Below, in pieces: positions 1-11,892 of a stretch of 11,892 bases of DNA. Below the pieces are notes generated by a model. The model made no database searches. It was not told the DNA's origin and worked only from the letters and a program-made list of their open reading frames with translations. Numbering within the stretch: the first letter of the stretch is position 1; the number at the start of each line of letters is the position of its first letter. A program made the position numbers and the translations under genes. The stretch lies in NCBI GenBank assembly GCA_001821395.1, contig MHLM01000002.1, positions 1-11,892 on the forward strand, in the 5' to 3' direction. This DNA comes from Candidatus Lloydbacteria bacterium RIFCSPHIGHO2_02_FULL_50_18. GTDB lineage: Bacteria > Patescibacteriota > Minisyncoccia > Phycocordibacterales > UBA6899.

Positions 1-31
1 AATGAATCTACTCCCATTCACAGAGCGACTT

Positions 32-50
32 GTCGAGGTCGGACCTCAAT
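32..50. repeat. Degenerate copy of the 19-nt REP-like palindrome on the 5' flank of the transposase gene (GTCGAGGTC-G-GACCTCaat)
   Basis: The left arm GTCGAGGTC and the centre G are identical to the other copies. The right arm matches only 6 of 9 positions (GACCTC, then aat instead of GAC). It ends 15 nt upstream of the ATG at 65. Confidence 0.5.
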
Positions 51-64
51 AGTAGACTGGGGAG

Positions 65-745
65 ATGGAAAGAAAAGATCCACTCATTGAAGGCGAGCTC
101 TATCATATATTTAACCGAGGGGTTGAAAAAAGAATTGTGTTTAAAAGCCAATCAGATTTCAGGAGGTTCTATGAATCACTCGCACAATTTAACACTACAA
201 ATGCAGCGCTCCACTCACGCACAAAATTCACTACAGAGAACAAAAAATCTGTTGATGTCGAGGTCGGACCTCGACATAATAAGGAACAAAAGCTCGTGAG
301 TATCTTGGCGTATACACTTTTGCCAAATCATTTTCACTTACTGTTGCGACAAGAGAGTCCGGGCGGCATCACTGAATTTATGCGAAAAATTGGAACTGGA
401 TACACGATGTACTTCAATAAAAAATATGTTCGAATTGGTCCGCTTTTTCAAGGAAAATTTAAGAGTGTACTTGTGTCACGAGATGAATATTATCAATACA
501 TCCCCCACTACATACATCTCAACGTACTCGACGCAACACATGCCGGATGGAAGAATGACGGGATATCGGTGGATCAGGCGTACAACGAATTAAGCGCATA
601 TCGATGGTCAAGCGCAAAAGAATATATCGGAAATGATAATCACGAGAGCATACTTGCACATACGGTCATCGATTCGCTTTTTGAAGAAAAACTTTTCAAC
701 AAAAAAATACTCAAGGAGCTGCTCGAGGATGACGCTTCACTCTAA
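65..745 (+). CDS. IS200/IS605-like Y1 (HUH) tyrosine transposase, REP-associated (RAYT-type), 226 aa
   Basis: The ORF is intact. N-terminal motif ELYHIFNRGVEKRIVF. HUH motif in LAYTLLPNHFHLLL (aa 81-94). GPLFQGKFKS matches the RAYT 'G-LWQ-RF' block. A C-proximal RDEYYQYIPHYIHLNVLDA block resembles E. coli RAYT DYRHHVDYIYINPVKHG, which carries the catalytic Tyr. REP-like palindromes flank the gene in inverted polarity. The GGAG ends only 1 nt before the ATG, so the SD context is poor. Confidence 0.85.
   Translation: MERKDPLIEGELYHIFNRGVEKRIVFKSQSDFRRFYESLAQFNTTNAALHSRTKFTTENKKSVDVEVGPRHNKEQKLVSILAYTLLPNHFHLLLRQESPGGITEFMRKIGTGYTMYFNKKYVRIGPLFQGKFKSVLVSRDEYYQYIPHYIHLNVLDATHAGWKNDGISVDQAYNELSAYRWSSAKEYIGNDNHESILAHTVIDSLFEEKLFNKKILKELLEDDASL
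255..277. repeat. Perfect REP palindrome (11-bp stem, 1-nt loop: ATGTCGAGGTC-G-GACCTCGACAT) embedded in-frame in the transposase CDS
   Basis: The core 19-mer at 257-275 is identical to the copy at 5480-5498. It encodes V-D-V-E-V-G-P-R-H (aa 63-71). This falls in a stretch of about 20-25 residues that is extra relative to E. coli RAYT, between the first beta-strand/helix and the HUH strand. Confidence 0.8.
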
Positions 746-777
746 TCTGTCGAGGTCCGACCTCGACAGATTAGAGT
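739..777. repeat. Extended REP hairpin (19-bp perfect stem, 1-nt loop) overlapping the last two codons and stop of the transposase. Opposite polarity to the other copies (centre C instead of G)
   Basis: acTCTAATCTGTCGAGGTC-C-GACCTCGACAGATTAGAgt. Left arm 739-757, loop C758, right arm 759-777; verified base by base. It sits in the 50-bp gap between the convergent stops at 745 (+) and 796 (-). Confidence 0.85.
739..777. terminator. Possible bidirectional transcription stop/mRNA-stabilising hairpin between convergent genes. Not a canonical intrinsic terminator
   Basis: Very stable 19-bp stem between convergent CDSs. No U-run follows on either strand; a T5 run precedes it on the minus-strand transcript. 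Confidence 0.3.
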
Positions 778-795
778 ACGAAAAATCTCGAAACG

Positions 796-2982
796 CTATT
801 CGCCCATGAGGTAGAGACGCCGAATCTCGTCAATAGAAAGTATGCGATTGTAGACACGGAGATCATCGATGGAACCAGTAAATTGTCTGGTGTTTGCAGC
901 ACTATTTCCTATATAGTATGGGTTCGAGTTACCGACTGGTGCTGAAGGTGTAGTAACTGATATTCCTTTGAATACTCCATCAACGTAAAAAGCAGGAGCG
1001 GTACCGGCACCACCATAGGTCACGAGAACGTGTTGCCATTTATTTTGGACAACGATGTTCGCTGCTGATACAGCCACGTTCGCACCATCAGTGGAAAAAC
1101 TGAGACCATTAGCTACGTTCGAATTATCACAAATAAAGAGGGTACTCCCTTTATCCACAATACGACCTCTCGCACCCCCACTACTGAAGTTTGTCGGGTA
1201 GATCCAAGCTGCAATAGTCATCTGTCCAGTGATATTGAGTGATGCCCCCGTACCAGCATTCACCGAATCATTCACTCCATCGAAACGGAGGGCTTGTCCT
1301 ATCTTGCCGATGGTGGTGGTCGTTGGATTCTGATTCTGAAGGCCGCCATGATTCCCCTGCCCCGAGACGTCACGCACATTCGGCATCATATCCTTGCCGT
1401 CGAAGGTCCACTCGCCCATAAGACCGCTGGTGAGTTCATCGCGGTGCGTGACATTCATTTTGAGCGATGCGCCCATGAGATAAAGGCGCTGCACTTCCTC
1501 AGGAGAGAGGACACGATCATAGACACGGACCTCATCAATGAAACCATCGAAATACTGCACACGGACACCCGAAGTATTCACTACAGAGGAAATCGTTAGT
1601 GGTACTGCTCCATTAAAAAGACTCCCTATGTTGTTTGCACCACTTGTCGCCCCGTTACTCAGTACTCCATCAACATAAACATTCGGATAGACTATTCCGG
1701 TAGCAGAGAATGTCATAGTAATAAAGTGCCAATTCCCATCGTTCACCGTTGCGCTGGATATTCTCGTATTAGCACCTACTCCATCTGCTGAGACTAACGC
1801 CCAGAGAACTCCTGCGTTTGTGCCATTTCCGATACTCAACCAGTATTCTCTGTCATTTCCTTGACTCTTGTATTTTCCGATGACCGTTTGTGCAAGAGTA
1901 GTAGAACTTGTCTTAACCCAAGCCGAAAGAGAGATACTTGCTGAGGGGTTAACTGAAGCAGAATCAGGTATGGTCACATAATCATCCACCCCATCAAAAC
2001 TGAGCCCCTGCCCGATCTTGCCGACGGTCGTGGTCGTTGGATTCTGATTCTGCAAACCGCCATGATTTCCCTGCCCCGAAACATCGCGCACGTTCGGTAT
2101 CATGTCCTTGCCGTCGAAGGTCCACTCGCCCATAAGACCGCTGGTGAGTTCATCGCGGTGCGTGACATTCATTTTGAGCGATGCGCCCATGAGATAAAGG
2201 CGCTGCACTTCCTCAGGAGAGAGTGCGCGACTGTAGATGCGGACGTCGTCAACAACACCATTCGTGTTCCGAGAGGTAACACCATCACTGCCCACAACAA
2301 GACCTATGTTTGTTGAGGCGGATCCAGATACTGTTGTGGTTCCACTGAGCACGCCATCAATATACAAATAAGACACGTTTCCAGAACGTAGACCTAGATA
2401 ATAATGCCACGTATTGTCATTGACGGTTGCTAAAACAGACGAAGCATAGTACAAGGTAGTGCCATTAGAAATAACAAAATCTAACTTATTAGTGCTCGCA
2501 TAACTAAAGCCGTAACCGGCTCCAGCGCCATTGTATGACCGTTTGGCAAGTATTACATTCACCGAACTGCCTTGGGAGGAATATCCTGCTCCCTTCATCC
2601 AGAGTCCTACCGAGAAATCACCAGAACCAAAATCTAGTGCACCAGAAACAGGGTCACCGATATTGACGTAAGCGTCAGTATCAGCACCACCGGGGAAAAA
2701 ATTGAATGCTTGTCCGATCTTTCCGATGGTGGCTGCCGGACCATTGGTGAGTGTTCCATTATTCCCCTGACCGCTCCTGTCGTAGACCGTCGTGCCGGAA
2801 ATATCTTTCCCATCAAAACTCCAATAACCGACGAGTCCGGAATTAAGCCTGTATCCCTGCCATGCATTCACCACGAAATTTGCGAGGGCCGTGCGCTGAA
2901 AAAGCGCAAACGTCATTGCAAATACGACGATGAATACCGCGAGGAAAAGAGGAATGATCTTTGGGGAAATTTTTTTATGCAT
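796..2982 (-). CDS. Secreted protein with three tandem LamG/concanavalin-A-like lectin (LamG_3-type jelly-roll) domains. Distal gene of the array
   Basis: The ORF is intact. I place the start at ATG 2982 (MHKKISPK...) because that N-terminus is shared with the paralog. The ORF track's 2991 is an upstream TTG. Sec signal peptide MHKKISPKIIPLFLAVFIVVFAMTFALFQRTALA, with an AXA cleavage site before NF. Three repeats follow the LamG_3 pattern: G-x-W-x-FDG ... SGQGNxG-L ... GKIGQ-x-FDG ... W-H ... LY-DGV ... D(D/E)VR-Y-R-LS-xE-(V/I). Stop TAG at 796-798. No SD motif upstream. Confidence 0.85.
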   Translation of the reverse strand: MHKKISPKIIPLFLAVFIVVFAMTFALFQRTALANFVVNAWQGYRLNSGLVGYWSFDGKDISGTTVYDRSGQGNNGTLTNGPAATIGKIGQAFNFFPGGADTDAYVNIGDPVSGALDFGSGDFSVGLWMKGAGYSSQGSSVNVILAKRSYNGAGAGYGFSYASTNKLDFVISNGTTLYYASSVLATVNDNTWHYYLGLRSGNVSYLYIDGVLSGTTTVSGSASTNIGLVVGSDGVTSRNTNGVVDDVRIYSRALSPEEVQRLYLMGASLKMNVTHRDELTSGLMGEWTFDGKDMIPNVRDVSGQGNHGGLQNQNPTTTTVGKIGQGLSFDGVDDYVTIPDSASVNPSASISLSAWVKTSSTTLAQTVIGKYKSQGNDREYWLSIGNGTNAGVLWALVSADGVGANTRISSATVNDGNWHFITMTFSATGIVYPNVYVDGVLSNGATSGANNIGSLFNGAVPLTISSVVNTSGVRVQYFDGFIDEVRVYDRVLSPEEVQRLYLMGASLKMNVTHRDELTSGLMGEWTFDGKDMMPNVRDVSGQGNHGGLQNQNPTTTTIGKIGQALRFDGVNDSVNAGTGASLNITGQMTIAAWIYPTNFSSGGARGRIVDKGSTLFICDNSNVANGLSFSTDGANVAVSAANIVVQNKWQHVLVTYGGAGTAPAFYVDGVFKGISVTTPSAPVGNSNPYYIGNSAANTRQFTGSIDDLRVYNRILSIDEIRRLYLMGE
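1391..1508. repeat. 118-nt segment letter-identical to 2105-2222 within the same LamG gene (linker 2 vs linker 1)
   Basis: Read by eye: TCCTTGCCGTCGAAGGTCCACTCGCCCATAAGACCGCTGG...CTTCCTCAGGAGAGAG is identical at both sites. Both encode ...SLKMNVTHRDELTSGLMGEWTFDGKD on the minus strand. Confidence 0.8.
1976..2127. repeat. 152-nt segment letter-identical between the two LamG genes (gene 1 linker 1 vs gene 2 linker 1 at 4444-4595). About 93% identity continues to roughly 2250/4720
   Basis: ACATAATCATCCACCCCATCAAAACTGAGCCCCTGCCCGATCTTGCC...GTCGAAGGTCCACTC is identical at both sites at a constant offset of 2468. The flanking domain cores differ. Confidence 0.8.
2105..2222. repeat. Partner copy of the 118-nt perfect intragenic repeat (matches 1391-1508)
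   Basis: See the 1391-1508 feature. Confidence 0.8.
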
Positions 2983-3017
2983 ACATGGCAAGATATCATT
3001 TCAGGGCTGCTCGATGC

Positions 3018-3092
3018 TCAAGCGCCACTTTCTGCTGAAATGACGGGGGCAGGAACGTCAGGAACAGGTGCCGTAGGATCGGAAACAGGAAG
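3018..3092 (-). pseudogene. Relic of a giant-gene 3' end (C-terminal about 24 codons plus stop) upstream of the distal LamG gene. Footprint of a duplicated 'fibre C-terminus + LamG' unit
   Basis: The minus-strand translation ...LPVSDPTAPVPDVPAPVISAESGA* matches the giant protein's C-terminus ...PVSEPTAPVPDVPAPVISSGGGA*. At DNA level 3036-3090 aligns with 5548-5602, 55 nt with 2 mismatches. There is no plausible start or upstream coding context. Confidence 0.7.
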
Positions 3093-3185
3093 CGTAGTGG
3101 ATCGTTTAAAATGTTTCTTTATATTATTCATTTGCATATATCATAACACATAACATTTTCATCCATTCTTAGGGAGCTACCGATG

Positions 3186-3204
3186 TCAAGGTTAAACCTT
3201 GACA
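3186..3204. repeat. Variant REP palindrome GTCAAGGTT-A-AACCTTGAC (9-bp stem, 1-nt loop). Same architecture as the main REP
   Basis: Perfect 19-nt palindrome. It shares GTC-AGGT...ACCT-GAC with GTCGAGGTC-G-GACCTCGAC. It lies about 40 nt downstream of the LamG2 stop (3243), and a T6 run precedes it on the minus-strand transcript. Confidence 0.6.
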
Positions 3205-3242: not shown

Positions 3243-5459
3243 TTATTTGCCCATAAGGTAGAGACGCTGGATCTCGTCGGGAGAAAGTACGCGGTTGTAA
3301 ATGCGGACTTCATCCATTCTCCCAGAAAATAGTCTAAGGCTATCAGCGAAACGTCCAGCAATATAAAGTGGAGTTGAAGCACTTGAACCTATACTCTGCG
3401 TCATGTTTGCAGCAGTGGTTACTTTTACTCCATTAACATAGAAACTTAAAGTTCCACTTCCACTGTAGGTTACGGCAATATGCTGCCAACGATTTAACGT
3501 AATGACATTAGTTGCATATCCATAGTCTACACTAATACTACCCGCAGCATTTACGCCGAAACCAAGACCGGCTGTTGTATTTGTATTATCCAAAAGAAAA
3601 ATATAACCTACATTACTGCCTAGTCTGTCTACAATTCTTGCTCGGTCTCCGAATGAGGTTGGATATATCCAAGCATTTACCGTTATGGCAGTTGTGATAT
3701 TGAGCGATGAGCCAGTCCCAACATTTATTTTGTCATCTACCCCATCAAAATTCAACCCCTGTCCTATCTTGCCGATCGTGGTGGTCGTCGGATTCTGATT
3801 CTGAAGGCCGCCGTTGTTCCCCTGCCCCGAGACATCACGCACGTTCGGTGTCATGTCCTTGCCGTCAAAGGTCCATTCGCCCACGAGGCCACTCGTGAGT
3901 TCATCGCGATGAGTGACGTTTGTTTTGAGTGATGCACCCATGAGATAGAGGCGCTTAACTTCATCGGCAGAGAGGGCGCGGTTGTAGGCACGGACCTCGT
4001 CAAGATTGCCGTCAAAGGGCATACTCCAATCAGAACGAGCGCCGACGACTAAGGCGTTTGACCCTGCGCTAATTGCACTGATACCAACAGTGCTCACTCC
4101 ATTGTCGCCCACCCCAACACCATTAACATACAGCTTCAGCCCACTCGCATTATTCGCCAAAAAAGTGCCGCACACATGTGTCCACACGCTCAGTTGAGTC
4201 GTATTTGACGGAGTTTCGATTCTCGCAGTACCAGTATCGGCACTATCCCAAATAGCAAAAGTGTACACGTCTGTTCGTCCCGAAGAAAAACCAACATCAT
4301 CACGAAAAAGAAGAAAACCGTTACTAGCAACAACGTCTTCCTTTGCAATGATGGCGTCATCGGATGTAATTGACCCATGATAGGCCCAGACACAAACTGT
4401 AAGTTCTGTCGCTGTATCTAAACTATTAATATCTCCCGCACTGACATAATCATCCACCCCATCAAAACTGAGCCCCTGCCCGATCTTGCCGACGGTCGTG
4501 GTCGTTGGATTCTGATTCTGCAAACCGCCATGATTTCCCTGCCCCGAAACATCGCGCACGTTCGGTATCATGTCCTTGCCGTCGAAGGTCCACTCACCAA
4601 CGAGACCCCCGGTGAGTTCATCGCGGTGGGTGACGTTTGTTTTGAGCGATGCGCCCATGAGATAGAGACGCTGCACTTCCTCAGGAGAGAGTGCGCGACT
4701 GTAGATACGAACGTCATCAACAATAACGTTGGCGTTTCTACCTCCATCGAGAGCACTATCGGCACCAATGATAAGACCGGAGGCAGTAGAACATGAGCCA
4801 CTTACTGTTGCGTTCGTACCCCTCACCATTCCGTCTCGATACAATGACATCATACCCCCCGAACGCATTCCGACATAGTGATGCCATGTATTATCATTCA
4901 TGGTGGCTGAAACATCATTAGCAGAATATGCTGTAGTGCCGTTCGCGATAGTAAAAGCCAGTATATTCCCACTGCCATAAGAAAATCCATAACCGGTTCC
5001 GACACTATTGTATGACTTTTTCGCGAGTGCTACATTCACCGAACTACCTTGAGAGGAATATCCAGTTCCTTTCATCCAAAATCCTACCGAGAAATCCCCT
5101 GTTCCAAAATCGAGCATCCCTGAAACGGGATCCCCCATGTTCGCATATGCATTCGTATCGGAACCATTAGGGAAAAAATTAAATGCTTGCCCAATCTTGC
5201 CGATGGTGGCTGCCGGACCATTGGTGAGCGTTCCATTATTGCCCTGGCCACTCCGATCATAGGCTGTTGTGCCGGAGATATCTTTGCCATCAAAACTCCA
5301 ATATCCGACGAGTCCGGAATTAAGTCGATACCCCTGCCATGCATTCACCACGAAATTTGCAAGTGCCGTGCGTTGAAATAGCGCAAACGTCATTGCAAAT
5401 ACGACGATGAATACCGCGAGAAAAAGAGGGATGATCTTTGGGGAGATTTTTTTATGCAT
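3243..5459 (-). CDS. Secreted protein with three tandem LamG/concanavalin-A-like lectin domains. Proximal gene of the array and paralog of 796-2982
   Basis: The start is placed at ATG 5459 (MHKKISPK...), which is the same signal peptide as in the paralog. The track's ORF runs to 5606 only because the frame stays open across the REP and the giant gene's 3' end. The first ~95 aa are near-identical to the paralog, as are the inter-domain linkers, but the cores of domains 1-3 are diverged and domain 2 is essentially a different LamG variant. Stop TAA at 3243-3245. No SD motif upstream. Confidence 0.85.
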   Translation of the reverse strand: MHKKISPKIIPLFLAVFIVVFAMTFALFQRTALANFVVNAWQGYRLNSGLVGYWSFDGKDISGTTAYDRSGQGNNGTLTNGPAATIGKIGQAFNFFPNGSDTNAYANMGDPVSGMLDFGTGDFSVGFWMKGTGYSSQGSSVNVALAKKSYNSVGTGYGFSYGSGNILAFTIANGTTAYSANDVSATMNDNTWHHYVGMRSGGMMSLYRDGMVRGTNATVSGSCSTASGLIIGADSALDGGRNANVIVDDVRIYSRALSPEEVQRLYLMGASLKTNVTHRDELTGGLVGEWTFDGKDMIPNVRDVSGQGNHGGLQNQNPTTTTVGKIGQGLSFDGVDDYVSAGDINSLDTATELTVCVWAYHGSITSDDAIIAKEDVVASNGFLLFRDDVGFSSGRTDVYTFAIWDSADTGTARIETPSNTTQLSVWTHVCGTFLANNASGLKLYVNGVGVGDNGVSTVGISAISAGSNALVVGARSDWSMPFDGNLDEVRAYNRALSADEVKRLYLMGASLKTNVTHRDELTSGLVGEWTFDGKDMTPNVRDVSGQGNNGGLQNQNPTTTTIGKIGQGLNFDGVDDKINVGTGSSLNITTAITVNAWIYPTSFGDRARIVDRLGSNVGYIFLLDNTNTTAGLGFGVNAAGSISVDYGYATNVITLNRWQHIAVTYSGSGTLSFYVNGVKVTTAANMTQSIGSSASTPLYIAGRFADSLRLFSGRMDEVRIYNRVLSPDEIQRLYLMGK
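4444..4595. repeat. Partner copy of the 152-nt perfect inter-paralog repeat (matches 1976-2127)
   Basis: See the 1976-2127 feature. Confidence 0.8.
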
Positions 5460-5479
5460 ACACTGCTGGCGTGCTGGAG

Positions 5480-5498
5480 GTCGAGGTCGGACCTCGAC
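5480..5498. repeat. Dispersed perfect copy of the REP 19-mer GTCGAGGTC-G-GACCTCGAC in the 70-bp gap between the giant gene stop and the LamG2 start
   Basis: Identical to 257-275. The left flank carries a GAGGTC duplication (gGAGGTCGAGGTCg). Confidence 0.8.
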
Positions 5499-5511
5499 AA
5501 GATGATGCACT

Positions 5512-5524
5512 GAGGCCCGGCCTC
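5512..5524. repeat. GC-rich REP-like mini-palindrome GAGGCC-C-GGCCTC immediately 3' of the giant gene stop. With 5480-5498 it forms a BIME-like tandem of related hairpins
   Basis: 6-bp stem, 1-nt loop. The context tGAGGCCcGGCCTCg parallels cGAGGTCgGACCTCg of the main REP. Confidence 0.5.
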
Positions 5525-5529
5525 GAAGC

Positions 5530-8500
5530 TCACGCGCCTCCCCCGGATGAAATGACGGGGGCAGGAACGTCAGGAACAGGTGCCGTAGGCTCGGAGACAG
5601 GAGCATCGGGAACTGGGGGCGTTGGTTCTGGGACAGGAGTATCGAGAACAGGAGGCGTGGATTCGGAAGTAGGAGGCGTGATGGGTTCTGAAACGAGTGG
5701 TGTAACGGGTTCAGTTACGGTAGAAACCGTTGATTCAGTAACAACGGGTACGCCCGACTCAGTGTTTGTGGTGTCACCGGTACCCACCTCAACAGTCGGC
5801 TGTTCTATTGTAGGTGGTGTTGAGTTTGCGCTCGTACTGCCTCCGGTAGCCCCCTCTTCAGGAGGCAATTCATCAAACGGAGTTCCCGACTGGATTAGGA
5901 GTGCACGCAGTCCCGCCTCGTCGATGCAGACACGCCCGACACATAATTTCTTTGTCTGCACTTCAGGGATCTTGAGCACACCGTTCTCATCGAGCGACCA
6001 GTTGTTTGCAACGCCGCGTAACGAGCCGATCTCAGCGATCGAGAATGACTGCATGTTGATCGATGCATTGGCGAGCATTGTATTGTTCTCAGTATCGACA
6101 GACCAGATATTCCCCAGGTCGACCGATTCGCCCGACACCGCACTTCCGAGCGAGCTCAGCTTGGTCTGCACGAATACGAACAGCTTCATTGTTGTCTCAT
6201 TGTTCACCGTAGCGATATATGGCTCAAGTGCGATACCGACTGTTGGCTCTCCCGGTGCGGCCTTCTTTCCTACTCCAATGACGGATGAAGGAGCGATCAT
6301 GTCTCCCACATGGATCGCACCGCCCTCAAGCGAGACCGTCACCGGGACACGTCCGACAAGCGCGATCGGGATCTGCCGTGCGTTATTCTCGGCAACATCA
6401 TCCTTGATATCGCCCGCGACTTTAAATCCACCGAGAATGACACCCGGATCAGTCGAGACAACACCGAAGAGAATTGGACCGGGAACAGTTTTGTCAAAAC
6501 GCTTCACGAACACGGGATGTGCGGGATCGAGCATGACGATATCGCCCGGCATAGCGGCGCTGTCGAGTGTCGGATACTGCTCGGCAACGTCGATACCGGC
6601 AAGCGATGAACCTTCTCCGTAGATGAACCCTCGCGTGCGTGCTGCAGCAGAACACTCACCACCATCATCGTTCACACAGATGATACCATTCTCAACAATG
6701 AGCGACGCATCGGGAATGTTGGATGAATAATACGGCGTCGTGGAACCGATATTCACGGTTGTTGAACCCACTGTGCCACCTGATAATGCTTCACCCGAGA
6801 TCGTGAGCATAGGGATGCCATCGAGCTGTGCGGAGTAGCGTTCTTTCGTTCCCACTGCGGATAATGAAGTAATGTTCATATCGATCCAGCTCAAAATACC
6901 CGCATCGTTCTCAAATTCCGCAGGACCCGCCTCAAGGTGGTCCACCGACATGTTGACGAACGATGAGGTGGCCGAGGAAGAAGTGGCGGTAAAGAAGTTC
7001 GCAAGTACCTCGCCGACCACAGAGAGTTTCGCCCATGGAGAACTCGTGCCGATCCCCACATTACCATTGTTCAACACCGTGAAGAGCGTGGTCGAGGCGC
7101 TGTTGGCTACTTCAAATGCCATTGAAGTTGCGAGGGTATCCCCTCCCCAGACCGTGAGCTTGGCATAGGGAGAAGAGGTGCCGACACCGAGCTTGCCAGT
7201 GAGTGGCTGGGTGGTGAGGGAAGTGTTTGTTGTGGTGGCAGGAAGGTTGGCAAAGAGGAAGTTGCCGATGTTCATCATGTTGCTCGAGGATACTGCGGGG
7301 AATTTGATGTTGTAGCCCATGCCAATGTTGTTGTAGCCCGTGGTGATGGCGGTGCCTCCGGAGTTTTGGTCATGTCCGAGGAAGATATTGTCATAGCCGG
7401 TAGTGACGTTGAGGCCGGCTTGATAGCCGAGGGCGGTGTTGTATGAGCCAGTATTGTTGAGGAAGAGGGCTTGATACCCCAATGCGTTATTGTATAAGCC
7501 GGTGGTATTGGCGTTGAGGGCGCTTACTCCCAAAGCGGTGTTGTATGAGCCGGTGGTGTTGGAGTAGAGGGCGCTTGCTCCCAATACGTTGTTGTATGAG
7601 CCGGTGGTGTTGGAGTAGAGGGCGTATTGTCCTAATGCAGCGTTGACGCTTCCGTTAGTGTTGGAGTAGAGGGCGGAATATCCCAATGCGTTGTTGCTGG
7701 AGCCAGTGGTGTTGGAGTAGAGGGATTGGTACCCCAATGCATTGTTCGCTGCGCCGGTCGAGCCATTCGTCCCAGAAAGTCCTCTGAGTGCTTGAAATCC
7801 TACAGCAAAATTATCTGTTCCTGACGTTGCATATTGCATTGCGTATTGACCCATCGCAATGTTGTTACCACCAGTAGCCGGTGATCCTCCTGTGAAGGAT
7901 CCGGTGGTGGTTGCTCCCGCATAGTAGAAGTTCATGCGGGTTGAAGAGGCGGCCATACCGAGAACGCCATTCAAGTAGTATCCACCGAGGGAGCTCGTGG
8001 CGTTGAATGCGGTTGCGTTTGGGGTGGAGGTTGGAGCGATAGTCGTGGCACTCGTCCAAGCGGAGAGCATTCCTGCAACACCACCGGAGAGTGATGCACC
8101 TGAAGTGAGGCAGGTGCCGTTCACGGCGAAGCAGCCTGCAGCAAGATTGATGCCACCGGTACTATTGAATGTTGAAGTTGCTGCGGTAAAGTTGATACCG
8201 TTTGTTGTGCCGAGGGAGAGGAGAGAGCCAGGAGTGGTCGAGCCAATTCCCATGTTGCCACTATTTGCGACGGTAAATACTTCATCAGACGAGTTGTTTA
8301 AGCTCATGATCTTGCCTGTTCCCATCTGGGTGGTTGATGCGAGAGCAACGGAGGAGGAGGCGAAGATGGAAAGTGGTGAGTATGCGACTTGTCCGAGTTG
8401 TTTAGTATCGAGCGTGAGCCGATCCCACTCTGTGTATTTCGTGCCGGTTCCGAGGTCATTGATTGACGATGCACCCGTGCCGGAGTATGAGTTGCCGACG

Positions 8501-11500
8501 AGGACGTTGTTGTCGGAGGTGGAGTTGACGATATCGATCGCATAGCCGGTGCCGGCGGTATCGACAATGCTATTGGAAGAAACAACGTTCCCGTCAGAGG
8601 TGATGATGTAGATACTGCTGTTCGCTCCCGCGGCACCGTTATTGTAGAGCGAGTTGGCGGTGACGGTATTGTTTGAGGCGCTGTCGAGGTAGAAGCCATA
8701 GTGACTGTTACTATCCGCAGTATTGCCGGTAAGGGTGTTGTTTGAGGAGAGGTAGATTTTCATACCGTCATAGTTATTTCTCACGGTATTCCCAGTGACA
8801 GTATTATTTAAGGAGGAGAGGAGGTAGATGCCGAAGTTTCCGCTGCTGTTGGCGGTATTGCCTGTGAGGATGTTGTCGTTGGAGGAGGAGAGGGAGATGC
8901 CGATGCTACTGTTGCTATTCGCGATATTGCCGGTGAGGGTGTTATTTAGGGAGGAGAGGAGGGAGATGCCGATGGCGTTGATGTTCGCGGTGTTTCCGGT
9001 GAGGGTATTGTTTGAGGAGGAAGAGAGGTAGATGCCATTGCCGTTGTTGCTATTCGTAGTATTGCCGGTGAGGGTGTTATCGTTGGAGGAGGAGAGGAAG
9101 ATACCATGGTTGGTAGTGGTGGCAACAGTAATATTTCTGATAGTAGAAGAAGCTACGGAGGTGAATCTGATACCGTTTTGGAAGCCAGTGTTACGCCCTT
9201 GATTTCCATCAACGAAGAGGTCGGCAATGGTGACGTATGAGAGGGTGTTGGCGGCAATAGCATTTGCCGTCGCGTTTGTTGAGGATGCAATATGGATGAC
9301 GGTGGAGTTCCCGAAACCGATGAGGGAAGTGGAGGTTGCCATCTGGATCTTGTCCCCTGCTCCGGTGGAGAGGTAGTAATCTCCTTCCATGAGGTAGACC
9401 TTGCCGCCGCGACCACCTGCGTATGCAGCTTGGAGTGCGGTGTTGATGGCGGTTTCTGCACCTGCGCCGTCTGCGACATAATCTGCGTACGCTTTGTTCG
9501 TGGAGTTTTGTGCTGCGACGGTATAGGTTGCGCCGTCACCATCGGGAGATGCTGCTCCTCCTCCGACACAGACGCCATTCACTGCAAAGCAGCCTGAGGA
9601 GAGTGCGATACCTCCGGCGAATGTACTCGTTGCGCCTCCGGTAACTGCAAGGTTTGAGGTGGTTGCCGTATTGGAGACGATGAAGTTTGAGGTGGAGGCG
9701 AGTCCGTTGTTGAAAATGGAGAAGAGTGAAGTTGAGGCGGAGTTCACTGCTTCAAATGCGCGGGAGGTGTCGAGAGTATCCCCTCCCCAGACGGTGAGCT
9801 TGGCATAGGGAGAAGAGGTACCGACACCGAGCTTGCCGGTCAAGGGTTGAGTGGTGAGGGTTGTTCCGGTGGTGGTCGCAGGAAGGTTGGCAAAGAGGAA
9901 GTTGCCGATATTCATCATGTTGCTTGAGGATACTGCGGGGAATTTGATGTTGTAGCCCATACCGATGTTGTTGTATCCCGTGGTGATGGCGGTGCCTCCA
10001 ACGTTTTCGTCGTGCCCGAGGAAGATGTTGTCGTAGCCGGTGGTGACGTTGTATCCTGCCTGATTACCGAGGGCAGTGTTGTATGAGCCGGTGGTGTTAA
10101 AAATGAGGGAATAATGCCCGAATGCGTTGTTGTATGAACCGATGGTGTTATTGGAAAGTGCACTGCCACCAAATACACTGTTAAATGATCCCGTAGTGTT
10201 TTCTAACATAGATGTTTCACCAAAAGCTGAATTTCCTCCTCCCGTTGTATTTTTTCCTAACGAGTTTGAACCAACAGCAGTGTTGTCACTACCGGAAATA
10301 TTATTGCTTAACGCCCCTGCACCAACACCGGTGTTGTATCCTCCGGTTAAATTTGACTGTAGCACTGCCTCACCGATCGCAGTGTTTATATTACCAGTTG
10401 TATTTTGCATTAAGGTTGATTTTCCAAATGCAGTGTTGAAATTTCCGGTATTCGCCTGTAATGCCCAATAACCGAATGCGGTATTATTAATTCCCGGGGT
10501 ACTACTTGTTCCCGCCCCAAGACCCATGAAAGTATTGTATGTCGTCGACGATGCAGTGATAAATTTTTGTCCATTCCAATAGACATAGCCATCAGTTACC
10601 CCAGTATCAATAGCGATGTTTCCCGCAACGCTGAGTTTTGCCCAGGGAGAGGTGGTGCCAATACCGACGTATCCATTATTTGCAACGGTGAAGACTTCGC
10701 TCGAACTATTGTTGAGCGACATGATCTTGCCACTTCCCATCTGAGTAGTGGACGCAAGCGCGACGGAAGAGGAGGCGAAGATAGCAAGCGGTGAGTATGC
10801 AACTTGGCCGAGTTGCTTGGTATCGAGGGTGAGGCGGTCCCACTGTGTGTATTTGGTGTTAGTGCCGAGGTCCTGAATAGAGGAGGCACCGATACCGGAG
10901 TATGAGTTGCCGATGAGGACGTTGTTGTCGGAGGCGGAGGAGGTGAGATGGATCGCATAACCCGTACCAGCGGTATCTTGGATGATGTTGGAAGAAATGA
11001 CGTTCCAATCAGAAGTTTCGATACGAATACTGCTGTTCGCTGACGCGGCTGTGTTATCAGCAAGCGAGTTGCCAGTGACGGTGTTGTTTGAGGAAGAGGA
11101 AAGGAAAATACCGTAAAAACTATTGTTATTCACGGTGTTCCCAGTGACGATGTTGTTATTGGAGGAGCCAGCGAGGTAGATGCCGGTGTAGCTGTTACTA
11201 TTCGCAGTGTTCCCAGTGACGATGTTGTTTGAGGAGGACATGAGGTAGATGCCGTAGTTGGTGTTGCTATTTACTGTATTCCCAGTGACGATGTTGTTCA
11301 AAGAGGTGGCAGAGAGGAGGAAGCCGTTGTTACCGTTACCACTGAACGTATTCCCAATGACGGTATTATTCAAGGAAGAGACGAGGTAGATGCCAGTGTC
11401 GGTCGTGGTGGCAACCGTAACGTTCCTGATAGTAGAGGAGGAAACGGAAGTAAATTGGATACCAGTTTGTGAACTGGTGTTCCGCCCTCTATTTCCATCA

Positions 11501-11892
11501 ATGAAGAGATCGGCAATTGTGATGTATGAGAGTGTGTTTGCCACGATAGCGTTGGCGGTTGCGTTGGTGGATGACGCAATATGAATGACCGTAGATTGTC
11601 CTGCTCCAATGAGTGATGTTGAGGTTGCCATCTGGATCTTGTCCCCTGCTCCGGTGGAGAGATAGTAGTCTCCTTCCATGAGGTAGACCTTGCCGCCACG
11701 GCCTCCTGCGTATGCAGCTTGGAGGGCGGTGTTGATTGCGGTTTCTGCGCCTGCGCCGTCTGCGACATAATCTGCGTACGCTTTGTTCGTGGAGTTTTGT
11801 GCTGCGACGGTATAGGTTGCACCGTCACCATCGGGAGATGCTGCTCCCCCTCCGACACACGTGCCGTTCACTGCGAAGCAGCCGGCGGAGAT
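5530..11892 (-). CDS. Giant modular surface/fibre-like protein, 5'-partial (at least 2120 aa in the window). Two tandem units of ~763 aa (tailspike/pectate-lyase-like beta-helix + stalk + 17-residue repeat array), a C-terminal globular domain and a Pro/Thr-rich tail
   Basis: One uninterrupted frame runs from the window edge to the stop at 5530-5532. The frame is still open at 11892 (translation ...ISAGCFAVNGTC... matches the internal repeat SSGCFAVNGVC), so the true start lies outside. GDGATYTVAAQ...GAETAINTALQAAYAGGRGGKVYLMEGDYYL is the typical N-cap of the Pectate_lyase_3/tailspike beta-helix family. NxxLTGNTANSNSxYGIYL repeats are PbH1 beta-helix coils. Confidence 0.85.
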   Translation of the reverse strand: MSAGCFAVNGTCVGGGAASPDGDGATYTVAAQNSTNKAYADYVADGAGAETAINTALQAAYAGGRGGKVYLMEGDYYLSTGAGDKIQMATSTSLIGAGQSTVIHIASSTNATANAIVANTLSYITIADLFIDGNRGRNTSSQTGIQFTSVSSSTIRNVTVATTTDTGIYLVSSLNNTVIGNTFSGNGNNGFLLSATSLNNIVTGNTVNSNTNYGIYLMSSSNNIVTGNTANSNSYTGIYLAGSSNNNIVTGNTVNNNSFYGIFLSSSSNNTVTGNSLADNTAASANSSIRIETSDWNVISSNIIQDTAGTGYAIHLTSSASDNNVLIGNSYSGIGASSIQDLGTNTKYTQWDRLTLDTKQLGQVAYSPLAIFASSSVALASTTQMGSGKIMSLNNSSSEVFTVANNGYVGIGTTSPWAKLSVAGNIAIDTGVTDGYVYWNGQKFITASSTTYNTFMGLGAGTSSTPGINNTAFGYWALQANTGNFNTAFGKSTLMQNTTGNINTAIGEAVLQSNLTGGYNTGVGAGALSNNISGSDNTAVGSNSLGKNTTGGGNSAFGETSMLENTTGSFNSVFGGSALSNNTIGSYNNAFGHYSLIFNTTGSYNTALGNQAGYNVTTGYDNIFLGHDENVGGTAITTGYNNIGMGYNIKFPAVSSSNMMNIGNFLFANLPATTTGTTLTTQPLTGKLGVGTSSPYAKLTVWGGDTLDTSRAFEAVNSASTSLFSIFNNGLASTSNFIVSNTATTSNLAVTGGATSTFAGGIALSSGCFAVNGVCVGGGAASPDGDGATYTVAAQNSTNKAYADYVADGAGAETAINTALQAAYAGGRGGKVYLMEGDYYLSTGAGDKIQMATSTSLIGFGNSTVIHIASSTNATANAIAANTLSYVTIADLFVDGNQGRNTGFQNGIRFTSVASSTIRNITVATTTNHGIFLSSSNDNTLTGNTTNSNNGNGIYLSSSSNNTLTGNTANINAIGISLLSSLNNTLTGNIANSNSSIGISLSSSNDNILTGNTANSSGNFGIYLLSSLNNTVTGNTVRNNYDGMKIYLSSNNTLTGNTADSNSHYGFYLDSASNNTVTANSLYNNGAAGANSSIYIITSDGNVVSSNSIVDTAGTGYAIDIVNSTSDNNVLVGNSYSGTGASSINDLGTGTKYTEWDRLTLDTKQLGQVAYSPLSIFASSSVALASTTQMGTGKIMSLNNSSDEVFTVANSGNMGIGSTTPGSLLSLGTTNGINFTAATSTFNSTGGINLAAGCFAVNGTCLTSGASLSGGVAGMLSAWTSATTIAPTSTPNATAFNATSSLGGYYLNGVLGMAASSTRMNFYYAGATTTGSFTGGSPATGGNNIAMGQYAMQYATSGTDNFAVGFQALRGLSGTNGSTGAANNALGYQSLYSNTTGSSNNALGYSALYSNTNGSVNAALGQYALYSNTTGSYNNVLGASALYSNTTGSYNTALGVSALNANTTGLYNNALGYQALFLNNTGSYNTALGYQAGLNVTTGYDNIFLGHDQNSGGTAITTGYNNIGMGYNIKFPAVSSSNMMNIGNFLFANLPATTTNTSLTTQPLTGKLGVGTSSPYAKLTVWGGDTLATSMAFEVANSASTTLFTVLNNGNVGIGTSSPWAKLSVVGEVLANFFTATSSSATSSFVNMSVDHLEAGPAEFENDAGILSWIDMNITSLSAVGTKERYSAQLDGIPMLTISGEALSGGTVGSTTVNIGSTTPYYSSNIPDASLIVENGIICVNDDGGECSAAARTRGFIYGEGSSLAGIDVAEQYPTLDSAAMPGDIVMLDPAHPVFVKRFDKTVPGPILFGVVSTDPGVILGGFKVAGDIKDDVAENNARQIPIALVGRVPVTVSLEGGAIHVGDMIAPSSVIGVGKKAAPGEPTVGIALEPYIATVNNETTMKLFVFVQTKLSSLGSAVSGESVDLGNIWSVDTENNTMLANASINMQSFSIAEIGSLRGVANNWSLDENGVLKIPEVQTKKLCVGRVCIDEAGLRALLIQSGTPFDELPPEEGATGGSTSANSTPPTIEQPTVEVGTGDTTNTESGVPVVTESTVSTVTEPVTPLVSEPITPPTSESTPPVLDTPVPEPTPPVPDAPVSEPTAPVPDVPAPVISSGGGA
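5533..5871 (-). other. Pro/Thr/Glu/Val-rich low-complexity C-terminal tail (aa about 2001-2113). Likely an extended spacer or wall-spanning segment
   Basis: ...TEPVTPLVSEPITPPTSESTPPVLDTPVPEPTPPVPDAPVSEPTAPVPDVPAPVISSGGGA*. Confidence 0.6.
5872..7074 (-). other. C-terminal globular region (aa about 1600-2000) containing the motifs GDIVMLD, GVVSTDPGVILGG, ALVGRVPVTV and GAIHVGDMIAPSS
   Basis: Non-repetitive sequence with mixed composition, distinct from the upstream repeats. The motifs resemble C-terminal domains seen on some phage tail-fibre-like proteins. The family assignment is unverified. Confidence 0.35.
7141..7360. repeat. About 220 nt at roughly 90% identity to 9781-10000. Both encode the conserved junction GYDNIFLGHD...NIGMGYNIKFPAVSSSNMMNIGNFLFANLPATTT...GKLGVGTSSPYAKLTVWGGD
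   Basis: Long identical runs, e.g. GCAGGAAGGTTGGCAAAGAGGAAGTTGCCGAT and GAGGATACTGCGGGGAATTTGATGTTGTAGCCCAT. The period of this segment is 2640 nt, different from the 2289-nt period of the cap, so the duplication is mosaic. Confidence 0.75.
7312..7851 (-). other. Array 2 of about 8 tandem 17-residue repeats of the same family
   Basis: aa about 1341-1520: ANNALGYQSLYSNTTGS / SNNALGYSALYSNTNGS / VNAALGQYALYSNTTGS / YNNVLGASALYSNTTGS / YNTALGVSALNANTTGL ... Confidence 0.7.
8512..9561 (-). other. Beta-helix module 2 (second copy of cap plus PbH1 coils), aa about 771-1120
   Basis: The same cap sequence is repeated 763 aa downstream of the first. The coils are diverged, e.g. NSNSHYGFYLDSASNNTVTAN. 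Confidence 0.6.
9351..9605. repeat. Internal tandem duplication of the giant gene: about 255 nt at roughly 92% identity to 11640-11892. Period 2289 nt = 763 aa
   Basis: GTCCCCTGCTCCGGTGGAGAG...GCGACGGTATAGGTTGC...CACTGC read in parallel at both sites. Both encode the beta-helix cap (GDGATYTVAAQ...KVYLMEGDYYL). Confidence 0.8.
9781..10000. repeat. Partner copy of the 7141-7360 junction repeat
   Basis: See the 7141-7360 feature. Confidence 0.75.
9952..10509 (-). other. Array 1 of about 9 tandem 17-residue repeats, consensus x-(Y/F)-N-(T/N)-A-(F/L/I)-G-x-x-(A/S)-L-x-x-N-T-T-G (51-nt period)
   Basis: aa about 455-640: NFNTAFGKSTLMQNTTG / NINTAIGEAVLQSNLTG / GYNTGVGAGALSNNISG / SDNTAVGSNSLGKNTTG ... 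The register is exact over 8 or more units. Confidence 0.7.
10912..11892 (-). other. Beta-helix module 1 (pectate-lyase/tailspike-like cap plus about 9 PbH1 coils), aa about 1-320 of the visible ORF
   Basis: Cap motif AETAINTALQAAYAGGRGGKVYLMEGDYYL, then repeated N-N-x-(I/V/L)-T-G-N-T-x-N-S-N-x-x-x-G-I-Y-L rungs. Confidence 0.6.
11640..11892. repeat. Partner copy (unit 1) of the 2289-nt-period duplication
   Basis: See the 9351-9605 feature. Confidence 0.8.

What the first reader, a model, noticed from the sequence alone, without database searches (positions are those of the whole stretch)
255..277. The transposase gene contains, in-frame, a perfect copy of the very REP palindrome it is associated with
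ATGTCGAGGTC-G-GACCTCGACAT, with the core identical to the intergenic copy at 5480-5498, lies inside the RAYT-type CDS and encodes VDVEVGPRH. Relative to E. coli RAYT, the region between the N-terminal strand/helix and the HUH strand is about 20-25 residues longer here, so this stretch looks like an insertion. Three readings are possible. (i) A REP or miniature element inserted into its own transposase gene in a loop that tolerates it, which is self-targeting. (ii) The hairpin is a built-in cis-regulatory structure, for example a translational brake, or the enzyme binds its own mRNA or DNA for autoregulation. (iii) The region is ancestral and REPs derive from it. None of these is a standard description of REP-RAYT units, where REPs flank the gene.
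Basis: partly seen in the sequence, partly recalled or inferred. Interest (0 to 1): 0.55.

Follow-up and report, generated by a model that had tools for sequence, protein, structure and literature searches.

The report
Transposase gene carrying its own palindrome
A REP-type tyrosine transposase gene from a candidate-phyla-radiation bacterium carries, read through in frame, a copy of the same DNA hairpin that flanks it, and about 70% of 162 related genes do the same with their own genome-specific hairpin, an arrangement I did not find described in the papers I searched.

Summary
ATGTCGAGGTC-G-GACCTCGACAT (255-277) is a perfect 11+11 palindrome inside the RAYT-like ORF (65-745). It encodes D64-H71. 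Its 19-nt core recurs just upstream of the ATG, across the stop codon, and at 5480-5498.

It is not a lineage-specific accident. In 162 homologous genes from two independent collections, 92 carry a hairpin at this same position, the loop before the HUH strand. A further 22 carry one only at a second or third site inside the gene. The hairpin sequence differs between genomes and always matches the hairpins flanking that same gene, loop bases included. The reading frame is fixed (80 of 92), but the encoded amino acids are not conserved. Between relatives, the palindrome is the best-conserved stretch in the least-conserved part of the gene. It diverges in step with the flanking copies.

The same palindromes also lie in frame in linkers of unrelated genes such as MnmA and a GT4 glycosyltransferase.

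Best reading: an ancient in-frame REP copy in a disordered, permissive loop, kept matched to the flanking copies because it remains a substrate of the enzyme. A selected role, as an expression brake, an autoregulatory site or a heritable seed, is not excluded. I rate it a new variant of a known kind.

The parts
30..50 (+). Upstream REP copy (U): TTGTCGAGGTCGGACCTCAAT. The outer arm is decayed, and it ends 14 nt before the ATG.
   Evidence: (32-50, 2 mismatches). The relative L081 has the better-paired form...CCTCGATAG. In 74 of 84 homologous genes a same-family hairpin sits upstream, ending a median of about 20 nt before the start codon.
65..745 (+). RAYT-like Y1 (HUH) tyrosine transposase gene, 226 aa.
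   Evidence: Pfam Y1_Tnp E = 2e-6. NCBIfam REP_Tyr_transpos scores 35.9 bits, below its cut-off of 80. The best solved structural match is 4er8_A, E. coli RAYT with a REP hairpin. There are 973 homologues, mostly 216-270 aa.
255..277 (+). In-frame REP copy at site 1 (S1): ATGTCGAGGTC-G-GACCTCGACAT, covering codons D64-H71 (DVEVGPRH).
   Evidence: It lies in the model's low-confidence loop between helix 51-59 and strand 78-85. It is 23/23 identical in L081, although 3-nt indels sit on each side and the neighbouring bases have diverged.
329..337 (+). HUH motif, H89-F90-H91.
   Evidence: H89 and H91 are invariant in the 34-sequence alignment A1. Codons CAT TTT CAC were read.
509..511 (+). Putative catalytic tyrosine Y149, in the motif HYIHLN.
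   Evidence: Y149, H151 and N153 are invariant in A1. Y149 aligns with the YIYIN tyrosine of E. coli RayT.
739..777 (+). Downstream REP copy (D): a 19+19 perfect palindrome that overlaps the stop codon at 743-745. Its centre base is C where S1 has G.
   Evidence: I1; 749-767, exact. In 68 homologous genes the downstream hairpin starts a median of about 2 nt after the stop codon.
5480..5498 (.). Solo intergenic REP copy, with the 19-nt core identical to S1.
   Evidence: It lies in a spacer that is about 35 nt longer than the REP-less spacer at the paralogous position, 2983-3009.
3184..3204 (.). Diverged palindrome of the same type, TGTCAAGGTTaAACCTTGACA, lying between genes.
   Evidence: I3; D10: 60% identity to the S1 copy over 43 nt.

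Best explanation
The 23-nt palindrome is a genuine member of the REP family recognised by this RAYT-like Y1/HUH nuclease. It lies inside the enzyme's own coding sequence, in a disordered loop between the N-terminal helix and the HUH strand.

Origin (inferred). A REP inserted in frame into a loop that tolerates any sequence. The same elements do this in linkers of unrelated genes in these compact genomes. The enzyme's own gene is the closest target, which would explain why it is so often occupied.

Persistence (shown). The insertion is ancient and inherited vertically, because site and reading frame are fixed across a family that shares only about 40% amino-acid identity. It does not drift like the loop around it. 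Its sequence, unpaired loop bases included, stays the same as the hairpins just before the start codon and across the stop codon of the same gene, and it diverges between genomes in step with them.

Mechanism of maintenance (inferred). The in-gene copy is still seen as a REP. One route is short-patch copying or template switching among the three or four closely spaced copies. Another is RAYT-catalysed cleavage and rejoining on single-stranded DNA. Hairpin-internal templated repair would keep each copy perfectly self-complementary.

Consequences (inferred). The peptide it encodes (DVEVGPRH here; EVGLP, GGSTS, RSATP and others elsewhere) is a neutral linker. The gene always carries one copy of its own substrate. 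Its mRNA carries stable hairpins next to the ribosome-binding site, inside the ORF and over the stop codon, which probably keeps expression low.
For: Family-wide occurrence. A same-family perfect hairpin (arms of 6 nt or more) sits at site 1 in 53 of 84 genes from genome contigs. With decayed copies included, the flank REP matches site 1 significantly in 57 of 83. The independent metagenome set gives 39 of 78.

Match to the gene's own flanks. More than 25 different cores are seen, including GAGGTC, GAAGTC, GAGGCT, GAGACT, GGAGTG, GAAGCT, GGGGTT and GTAATC. Each in-gene copy matches that gene's own flanking hairpins. Two paralogous genes in one contig each carry their own type (L014, L020, L079).

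Loop bases covary as well. L040 has ACCGA against TCGGT, while L043 has ACTCA against TGAGT.

Nucleotides are conserved, not amino acids. The frame is fixed in 45/53 and 35/39 genes, while the encoded peptides differ.

Conservation between relatives. The palindrome is 23/23 identical between the window and L081, amid indels and substitutions. Across 18 related pairs identity is about 84% inside the palindrome, 63% in the 30 nt on each side and about 75% in the rest of the gene. Divergence of S1 between genomes equals that of U and D, for example 18/18/16, 16/14/16 and 12/12/12 out of 20.

Alleles without a site-1 hairpin are the same length and show point-mutation decay, not clean gaps.

Permissive location. 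pLDDT is below 50 at residues 60-67.

General behaviour of the element. Full-length REPs lie in frame between Pfam domain matches of MnmA and GT4, within the Pfam match of MiaA, and in other genes.

Hairpin stability.
Against: No biochemical or expression data exist, so the maintenance mechanism is inference.

A pure passenger model does not predict that the site-1 hairpin is short or absent when a second in-gene copy is present. The median arm is 0 against 8 nt, Mann-Whitney p = 7e-5, not corrected for phylogeny. That pattern hints at selection for one in-gene copy, or against two.

Some genes keep a long perfect in-gene palindrome with no flanking copy within 10 kb on either side (L064). Homogenisation from the flanks cannot explain those.

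Direct repeats 200-500 bp apart should promote deletions of the gene, so persistence without any benefit is somewhat surprising.

About 30% of the genes have no in-gene copy.
Confidence: 0.5

Rival explanations
1. Selected cis-regulatory element. At least one cognate hairpin inside the transcribed and translated region is kept because it limits production of a potentially harmful nuclease. It could act as an mRNA structure that slows ribosomes or directs RNA decay. Alternatively, the enzyme could bind its own hairpin on the non-template strand or on the mRNA, giving negative autoregulation.
For: - The palindrome is under nucleotide-level constraint inside a fast-evolving loop.
- The position is flexible (site 1; site 2 right after the catalytic-Tyr helix; site 3 near the C-terminus) but always inside the ORF.
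- Site 1 decays when site 2 is present, which suggests redundancy.
- Some genes have only the in-gene copy (L064, L010).
- The flanking copies hug the translation signals: the upstream one ends about 20 nt before the ATG and the downstream one overlaps the stop codon.
- The RNA hairpin folds at -18.3 kcal/mol.
Against: - A simple brake would not need to match the REP, loop bases included.
- G-U compared with A-C mismatches in the in-gene stems show no RNA-type bias (2 against 5).
- About 30% of family members have no in-gene copy.
- The same elements sit in unrelated genes, where no such role is plausible.
- Binding of RNA by this enzyme class is not established.
- The redundancy signal is not corrected for phylogeny.
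Confidence: 0.25
2. Heritable seed, or master copy. The in-gene REP physically ties the replicated sequence to the gene of its replicase. Wherever the gene is inherited or transferred, a template travels with it, and flanking and dispersed copies can be regenerated from it. Lineages whose gene carries a seed keep their REP system for longer.
For: - In-gene and flanking copies are the same in every genome, in either orientation.
- Most copies are at the gene itself. Only 33 further copies were found in roughly 1 Mb of surrounding DNA.
- In-gene-only cases exist.
- One in-gene copy appears to suffice.
Against: - Where the in-gene copy has decayed, the flanks are still perfect (L001, L016, L042). 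The flanks therefore do not depend on it.
- It requires selection at the lineage level.
Confidence: 0.12
3. Protein-level explanation. The segment is an ancestral, functionally selected peptide motif (E-V-x-P/L), and the palindromic DNA, or the REPs themselves, are by-products of it.
For: Many members encode EVGPR, EVGLP or EVEPR at this position.
Against: - In genomes with other REP cores the peptide at this position is unrelated: RSATP, VRSLASN, HETKSH, GGPAS, SRLNLEHE.
- The frame differs in 12 of 92 genes.
- The segment is predicted to be disordered.
- The motif E-V-x-P/L is simply GAG/GAA GTY NRA CCT/CTT, the commonest REP core read in frame 0.
Confidence: 0.03
4. Chance palindrome, or a recent insertion private to this lineage or contig, or an assembly artefact.
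For: None beyond the single window.
Against: - 0.01 matches are expected by chance.
- The palindrome is identical in an independent assembly that is 86% identical overall (L081).
- The pattern is reproduced in 162 genes from two collections.
Confidence: 0.01

Closest known systems
REP-RAYT units (REPtrons; TnpA_REP / RayT of E. coli, Pseudomonas, Stenotrophomonas)
   Same: A Y1 HUH nuclease with the HUH motif and the catalytic tyrosine. E. coli RAYT bound to a REP hairpin (4er8) is the best structural match. The gene is bracketed by its cognate palindromes. Several divergent gene-plus-palindrome pairs coexist in one genome, each with its own palindrome type.
   Different: - The cognate palindrome also lies in frame inside the gene, at one or two conserved sites. 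E. coli K-12 rayT has no comparable palindrome in its CDS, and published RAYT surveys examined only extragenic flanks (PMC5581495).
- The protein is about 60 aa longer and falls below the NCBIfam equivalog cut-off.
- The palindromes are perfect, with 1-5-nt loops.
- No GTAG-type tag is conserved next to them.
- Few dispersed copies were seen.
Intragenic REPs and Rickettsia palindromic elements (RPE) inserted in frame in protein-coding genes (PMC3733652; Ogata et al. 2000, recalled from memory)
   Same: A short palindromic repeat is read through in frame, at loops or inter-domain linkers, without breaking the ORF. This was seen here in MnmA and GT4 (inter-domain linkers), and also in MiaA, Wzy and others.
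   Different: Here the host gene is the element's own enzyme. The site and frame are conserved across a deep family, and the sequence evolves in concert with the flanking copies. Known intragenic REPs and RPEs are sporadic insertions in unrelated genes.
HUH initiators whose nick site lies inside their own gene (phiX174 gene A origin; pT181 origin within repC; both recalled from memory)
   Same: The gene of an HUH-family enzyme contains the hairpin or site that the enzyme recognises, which favours action in cis. Specificity and site co-vary among relatives.
   Different: Those are replication origins of phages and plasmids, with demonstrated nicking. Here nothing shows nicking or replication from the in-gene site, and the enzyme belongs to the Y1 transposase branch.
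IS200/IS605 insertion sequences (TnpA with subterminal hairpins; IS200 mRNA hairpins that damp expression)
   Same: A Y1 transposase gene lies between two hairpins recognised by the enzyme, and hairpins close to the translation start are thought to limit expression.
   Different: - Those hairpins are outside the CDS and must lie on one strand. Here the upstream and downstream loops are in the same orientation in 6 cases and the opposite orientation in 8.
- No multi-copy identical elements were seen, apart from one tandem duplication (L011).
- This protein is much longer.

Membership tests
RAYT / TnpA_REP (REP-associated tyrosine transposase) | Y1_Tnp fold with the HUH motif and a catalytic tyrosine | tested here: met
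   Pfam Y1_Tnp scores 28.3 bits against a cut-off of 23. H89, H91 and Y149 are invariant in A1. The top Foldseek hit is 4er8_A, E = 6.5e-5, TM-score 0.65 normalised to the target.
RAYT / TnpA_REP (REP-associated tyrosine transposase) | Reaches the curated equivalog score of NCBIfam NF047646 | tested here: not met
   35.9 bits against a cut-off of 80. This is a distant RAYT-like branch, not an equivalog.
RAYT / TnpA_REP (REP-associated tyrosine transposase) | Gene flanked on both sides by its cognate REP palindromes | tested here: met
   Window copies at 30-50 and 739-777. Same-family hairpins lie upstream in 74 and downstream in 68 of 84 homologous genes.
RAYT / TnpA_REP (REP-associated tyrosine transposase) | The REP family is dispersed in high copy number through the genome | tested here: inconclusive
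   The window holds one further exact copy and one variant in 11.9 kb. Only 33 copies were found outside the gene units in roughly 1 Mb of flanking DNA. A whole-genome census was not possible.
RAYT / TnpA_REP (REP-associated tyrosine transposase) | A conserved tag next to the hairpin (GTAG in classical REPs) | tested here: not met
   No base is strongly conserved in the 14 nt on either side of the upstream, in-gene or downstream palindromes (highest 60%, at one position 5' of the in-gene copy).
RAYT / TnpA_REP (REP-associated tyrosine transposase) | Single copy per family per genome (domesticated, not self-copying) | tested here: inconclusive
   Genes from the same assembly or contig are divergent paralogues with different palindromes (L009/L032, L002/L039, L014, L020). 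One identical tandem duplication was seen (L011).
IS200/IS605 autonomous insertion sequence | Left-end and right-end hairpins on the same strand (same orientation) | tested here: not met
   With loops of 3-5 nt, the upstream and downstream copies are in the same orientation in 6 genes and the opposite orientation in 8.
IS200/IS605 autonomous insertion sequence | Several near-identical copies of the whole element per genome | not tested
   Only 3.7-20 kb was held around each gene.
Intragenic REP / RPE-type in-frame palindromic insert | A palindromic repeat of a multi-copy family is read through in frame, at a loop or linker, with the ORF intact | tested here: met
   The ORF is open. The loop has pLDDT below 50. 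The family has other copies in the window. The same behaviour is seen in MnmA, GT4 and MiaA.
Intragenic REP / RPE-type in-frame palindromic insert | Sporadic, lineage-specific presence, with clean empty sites in relatives | tested here: not met
   The insert is family-wide with a fixed frame. Alleles without it have decayed in place and are not empty sites.
HUH initiator with its nick site inside its own gene (phiX174 A, pT181 RepC) | The enzyme nicks at the in-gene site and acts from there in cis | not testable with these tools
   Only the sequence-level parallel is shown, that is, the cognate hairpin lies inside the gene. No nicking data exist.

The most novel reading that the evidence does not exclude
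The in-gene hairpin is a selected, functional cis-element of the system rather than a tolerated passenger. It would then be either the site through which the nuclease senses and limits its own expression or acts in cis on its own locus, or a built-in seed that makes enzyme gene and substrate one inseparable, self-contained replicator. Selection would keep at least one copy inside the ORF (site 1, 2 or 3).
Probability: 0.35. Interest if true: 0.85.

Novelty: new variant of a known kind. Interest (0 to 1): 0.68.

Why it matters
REP-RAYT systems are the standard example of a domesticated transposase that coexists for a long time with a population of short palindromes. How the two stay matched is an open question.

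Here the match can be read inside the gene itself. In most of the 162 genes (92 at site 1, 114 at any in-gene site), the coding sequence contains the genome-specific palindrome and changes with it. This gives three things:
- A simple marker that pairs each enzyme with its substrate in uncultured genomes.
- A natural experiment in concerted evolution of a coding segment under nucleotide-level rather than amino-acid-level constraint.
- A directly testable case for autoregulation or cis-action by a Y1/HUH nuclease.

It also shows that in compact candidate-phyla-radiation genomes these palindromes often live in frame inside ordinary genes. That affects gene annotation and protein alignments for this group.

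Tried and rejected
- Rfam scan of the window: no family matched.
- Profile search of solved structures by sequence: only weak ISDra2 TnpA hits, E about 0.4, around the HUH strand. The fold search was needed instead.
- Terminator reading of the in-gene hairpin: no T-run follows it and no terminator is called there.
- Internal promoter. TTGATG-17-CATAAT brackets the palindrome at 252-280. It is a 9/12 match, not above the shuffle expectation, and not conserved in L081, so I dropped it.
- RNA versus DNA level of selection, from G-T against A-C mismatches. The counts are too small: 15 against 6 in the flanks and 2 against 5 in the gene.
- Conserved tag or target motif next to the palindromes: none found.
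- Gene fragments starting or ending at the in-gene hairpin, which would be evidence of breakage there. There was only one partial hit, and it is cut by a contig end.
- Clean empty-site alleles: not found; decay is in place.
- Literature. No paper in the searchable library describes a REP inside a RAYT coding sequence. This is absence of evidence in an incomplete library.

Full report
**1. The observation**

The window comes from a Candidatus Lloydbacteria (candidate phyla radiation) contig, according to the source name of the identical protein P0001.

- ORF 65-745 (+) encodes a 226-aa protein.
- It reaches Pfam Y1_Tnp.
- It stays below the NCBIfam cut-off for REP-associated tyrosine transposase (35.9 bits against 80).
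- Its predicted structure is closest to E. coli RAYT bound to a REP hairpin, 4er8_A, followed (after a block of Thg1 guanylyltransferase hits that align poorly) by the IS608 and ISDra2 TnpA structures.
- H89, H91 and Y149 are invariant among homologues.

At 255-277 lies a perfect 11+11 palindrome with one central base. It is read in frame as D64-H71. Its 19-nt core occurs four times in the window, against 0.01 expected:

| Position | Match | Location |
|---|---|---|
| 32-50 | 2 mismatches | ends 14 nt before the ATG |
| 257-275 | exact | inside the CDS |
| 749-767 | exact | part of a 19+19 palindrome (739-777) over the stop codon |
| 5480-5498 | exact | between two minus-strand genes |

A diverged variant is at 3184-3204. 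The in-gene hairpin folds far better than shuffled sequence, both as RNA and as DNA. The pre-HUH segment is about 30 residues longer than in E. coli RayT.

**2. It is a property of the family, not of this gene**

The protein has 973 detectable homologues of similar length. An alignment of 34 of them showed that the segment is present throughout the family. It also showed a recurring E-V-x-P/L motif that could be GAG/GAA GTY NRA CCT/CTT, that is, a palindrome.

I fetched 80 loci from species-representative genomes and analysed 84 genes with my own scripts.

- In 53 of 84 genes a perfect hairpin (arms of 6 nt or more) lies between the NRGVEK and PNHFHL motifs. I call this site 1. It belongs to the same sequence family as the hairpins flanking that gene.
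- With decayed copies included, the flank palindrome matches site 1 significantly in 57 of 83 genes.
- A second recurrent position, site 2, follows the catalytic-Tyr helix directly (aa about 150-172). A third lies near the C-terminus.
- In all, 64 of 84 genes carry at least one in-gene copy.
- An independent set of 78 genes from metagenome contigs reproduced the pattern: 39 with site 1 and 50 with any in-gene copy.
- One classical RAYT gene, E. coli K-12 rayT, has no comparable palindrome inside its CDS.

**3. What is conserved is DNA, not protein**

The palindrome core differs between genomes. Examples are GAGGTC, GAAGTC, GAGGTT, GAGGCT, GAGACT, GGAGTG, GAAGCT, CAAGGT, GGGGTT, GATGTC and GTAATC. 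In each case the in-gene copy has the core, outer arms and loop of the copies flanking the same gene.

- Two paralogous genes on one contig each carry their own type (L014, L020, L079).
- Unpaired loop bases covary too. L040 has ACCGA in the gene and TCGGT in the flanks. Its relative L043 has ACTCA and TGAGT.
- The encoded peptides are unrelated: EVGPR, EVGLP, YEAKPRK, RSATP, VRSLASN, HETKSH, GGSTS.
- The position of the hairpin centre in the reading frame is nearly fixed. At site 1 it is codon position 1 in 45/53 and 35/39 genes. At site 2 it is codon position 2 in 16/19 and 16/20.
- On a rough neighbour-joining tree the minority frames form a basal group, and site 2 occurs in subclades.

All of this points to vertical inheritance of the site rather than repeated random insertion.

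**4. Active maintenance**

- Window and L081 are 81% identical in protein and 86% in DNA. The palindrome is 23/23 identical, although a 3-nt indel sits on each side and the adjacent bases have diverged strongly.
- Across 18 related pairs (65-84% DNA identity), identity is about 84% inside the palindrome, 63% in the 30 nt on each side and about 75% in the rest of the gene.
- Between genomes, the in-gene copy diverges by the same amount as the upstream and downstream copies, for example 18/18/16, 16/14/16 and 12/12/12 out of 20. That is concerted evolution.
- Where site 1 lacks a hairpin, the allele usually has the same length with point mutations, not a clean gap.

**5. The loop is permissive, and these palindromes enter other genes too**

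The AlphaFold model has mean pLDDT 78.9. Its only stretch below 50 is residues 60-67, and the block 61-70 averages 48. This is the palindrome-encoded loop between helix 51-59 and the HUH strand 78-85.

Outside the transposase units I found only 33 family copies in roughly 1 Mb. About half of them lie in long ORFs. Pfam confirms that several are read in frame inside real genes:

- MnmA, between the PRC-barrel domain and the C-terminal domain
- a GT4 glycosyltransferase, between the N- and C-terminal domains
- MiaA
- a Wzy-type protein
- an SLT protein

Intragenic REPs of this kind are known from other bacteria (PMC3733652).

**6. Interpretation**

The simplest account that fits everything is as follows. 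An ancient REP was inserted in frame into a loop that accepts any sequence. It was inherited vertically. It is kept identical to the nearby copies because it is still treated as a REP, either by short-patch copying among closely spaced copies or by the enzyme's own cleavage and rejoining. Its peptide is a neutral linker.

Two observations keep a functional reading alive. First, site-1 hairpins are short or absent when a site-2 copy exists (median arm 0 against 8 nt, p = 7e-5, not corrected for phylogeny). Second, some genes keep a long perfect in-gene palindrome with no flanking copies (L064).

The flanking copies sit very close to the translation signals. The upstream copy ends about 20 nt before the ATG, and the downstream copy typically overlaps or abuts the stop codon. 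Together with a stable hairpin inside the ORF, this layout would be expected to damp expression. That is an inference from what is known of IS200 and of REPs near stop codons, recalled from memory.

I could not separate RNA-level from DNA-level constraint.

**7. Comparison with what is known, and novelty**

- The unit works like a REP-RAYT unit and passes the fold, motif and flanking-REP tests.
- It fails the curated equivalog score and lacks a conserved GTAG-type tag.
- Genome-wide abundance of the palindromes could not be measured.
- It does not behave like an IS200/IS605 element, because the orientation of the end hairpins is mixed.
- In-frame palindromic inserts are known, but as sporadic insertions in unrelated genes.
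- HUH initiators with their site inside their own gene (phiX174 A, pT181 RepC) are the nearest functional analogy, but that analogy is untested here.
- No paper in the searchable library describes a REP inside a RAYT coding sequence, and published RAYT surveys analysed only the extragenic flanks (PMC5581495).

I therefore class it as a new variant of a known kind.

**8. Limits**

- All inferences are comparative.
- The trees are rough neighbour-joining trees, and the tests are not corrected for phylogeny.
- Many loci come from metagenome-assembled genomes whose taxonomic labels may be wrong.

Noticed in passing
L053 11570-11598; L075 8360-8382; L049 8583-8607; L016 4695-4727; L028 1005-1030; L015 3096-3124; L006 1759-1779: Full-length palindromes of the local REP family lie in frame inside unrelated genes: MnmA and a GT4 glycosyltransferase (between their Pfam domain matches), MiaA, an SLT protein, a Wzy_C protein, an HTH protein and PPDK_N. 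About half of the 33 dispersed copies are in long ORFs, against 83% for random positions.
   Followed up: partly
L020 10146-10190, compared with 9931-9955 and 10715-10741: Individual copies have their own outer arms, and these are still perfectly self-complementary (22-nt arms in the gene, 12-13 nt in the flanks). The palindromes seem to grow into unique flanking sequence, as template-switch 'quasipalindrome correction' would produce.
   Followed up: no
L014, gene at 1731-2444 and its flanks: All four copies (upstream, site 1, site 2, downstream) share the same G-G mismatch, TATGGAGGTT.AACCTCGATA, in the same orientation. The centre base alternates between G and C, so the centre flips independently of the arms.
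   Followed up: partly
L011 1284-2990: The whole unit (palindrome, gene with its in-gene palindrome, palindrome) is tandemly duplicated with a period of 925 bp, and the two gene copies are identical.
   Followed up: no
L081 about 940-1030, compared with window 739-777: The 81%-identical relative has two downstream palindromes in opposite centre orientation, about 33 nt apart. The window has a single palindrome with 19-nt arms at that place. This looks like a deletion or insertion mediated by the repeats.
   Followed up: partly
window 3010-3090 and 5522-5602; spacers 2983-3009 and 5460-5521: An 81-nt stretch from the 3' end of the giant beta-helix gene is repeated (88% identity) upstream of the first LamG gene. 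The spacer that holds the solo palindrome at 5480-5498 is about 35 nt longer than its paralogous, palindrome-free counterpart.
   Followed up: partly
window 796-2982 (-), 3243-5459 (-), 5530-11871 (-): The neighbours are two tandem paralogous genes, each with three Laminin_G_3 domains, and a 2113-aa right-handed beta-helix/NosD protein with long internal repeats. These are typical large surface proteins and have no evident link to the transposase unit.
   Followed up: partly
window 252-280: Promoter-like hexamers, TTGATG-17 nt-CATAAT, bracket the in-gene palindrome exactly. The match is 9 of 12, is not above the shuffle expectation, and is not conserved in L081.
   Followed up: yes
141 genes from L001-L161 that had same-family hairpins in at least two positions: The site-1 hairpin is shorter or absent when a site-2 hairpin is present (median arm 0 against 8 nt; Mann-Whitney p = 7e-5). 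This was not corrected for phylogeny.
   Followed up: partly
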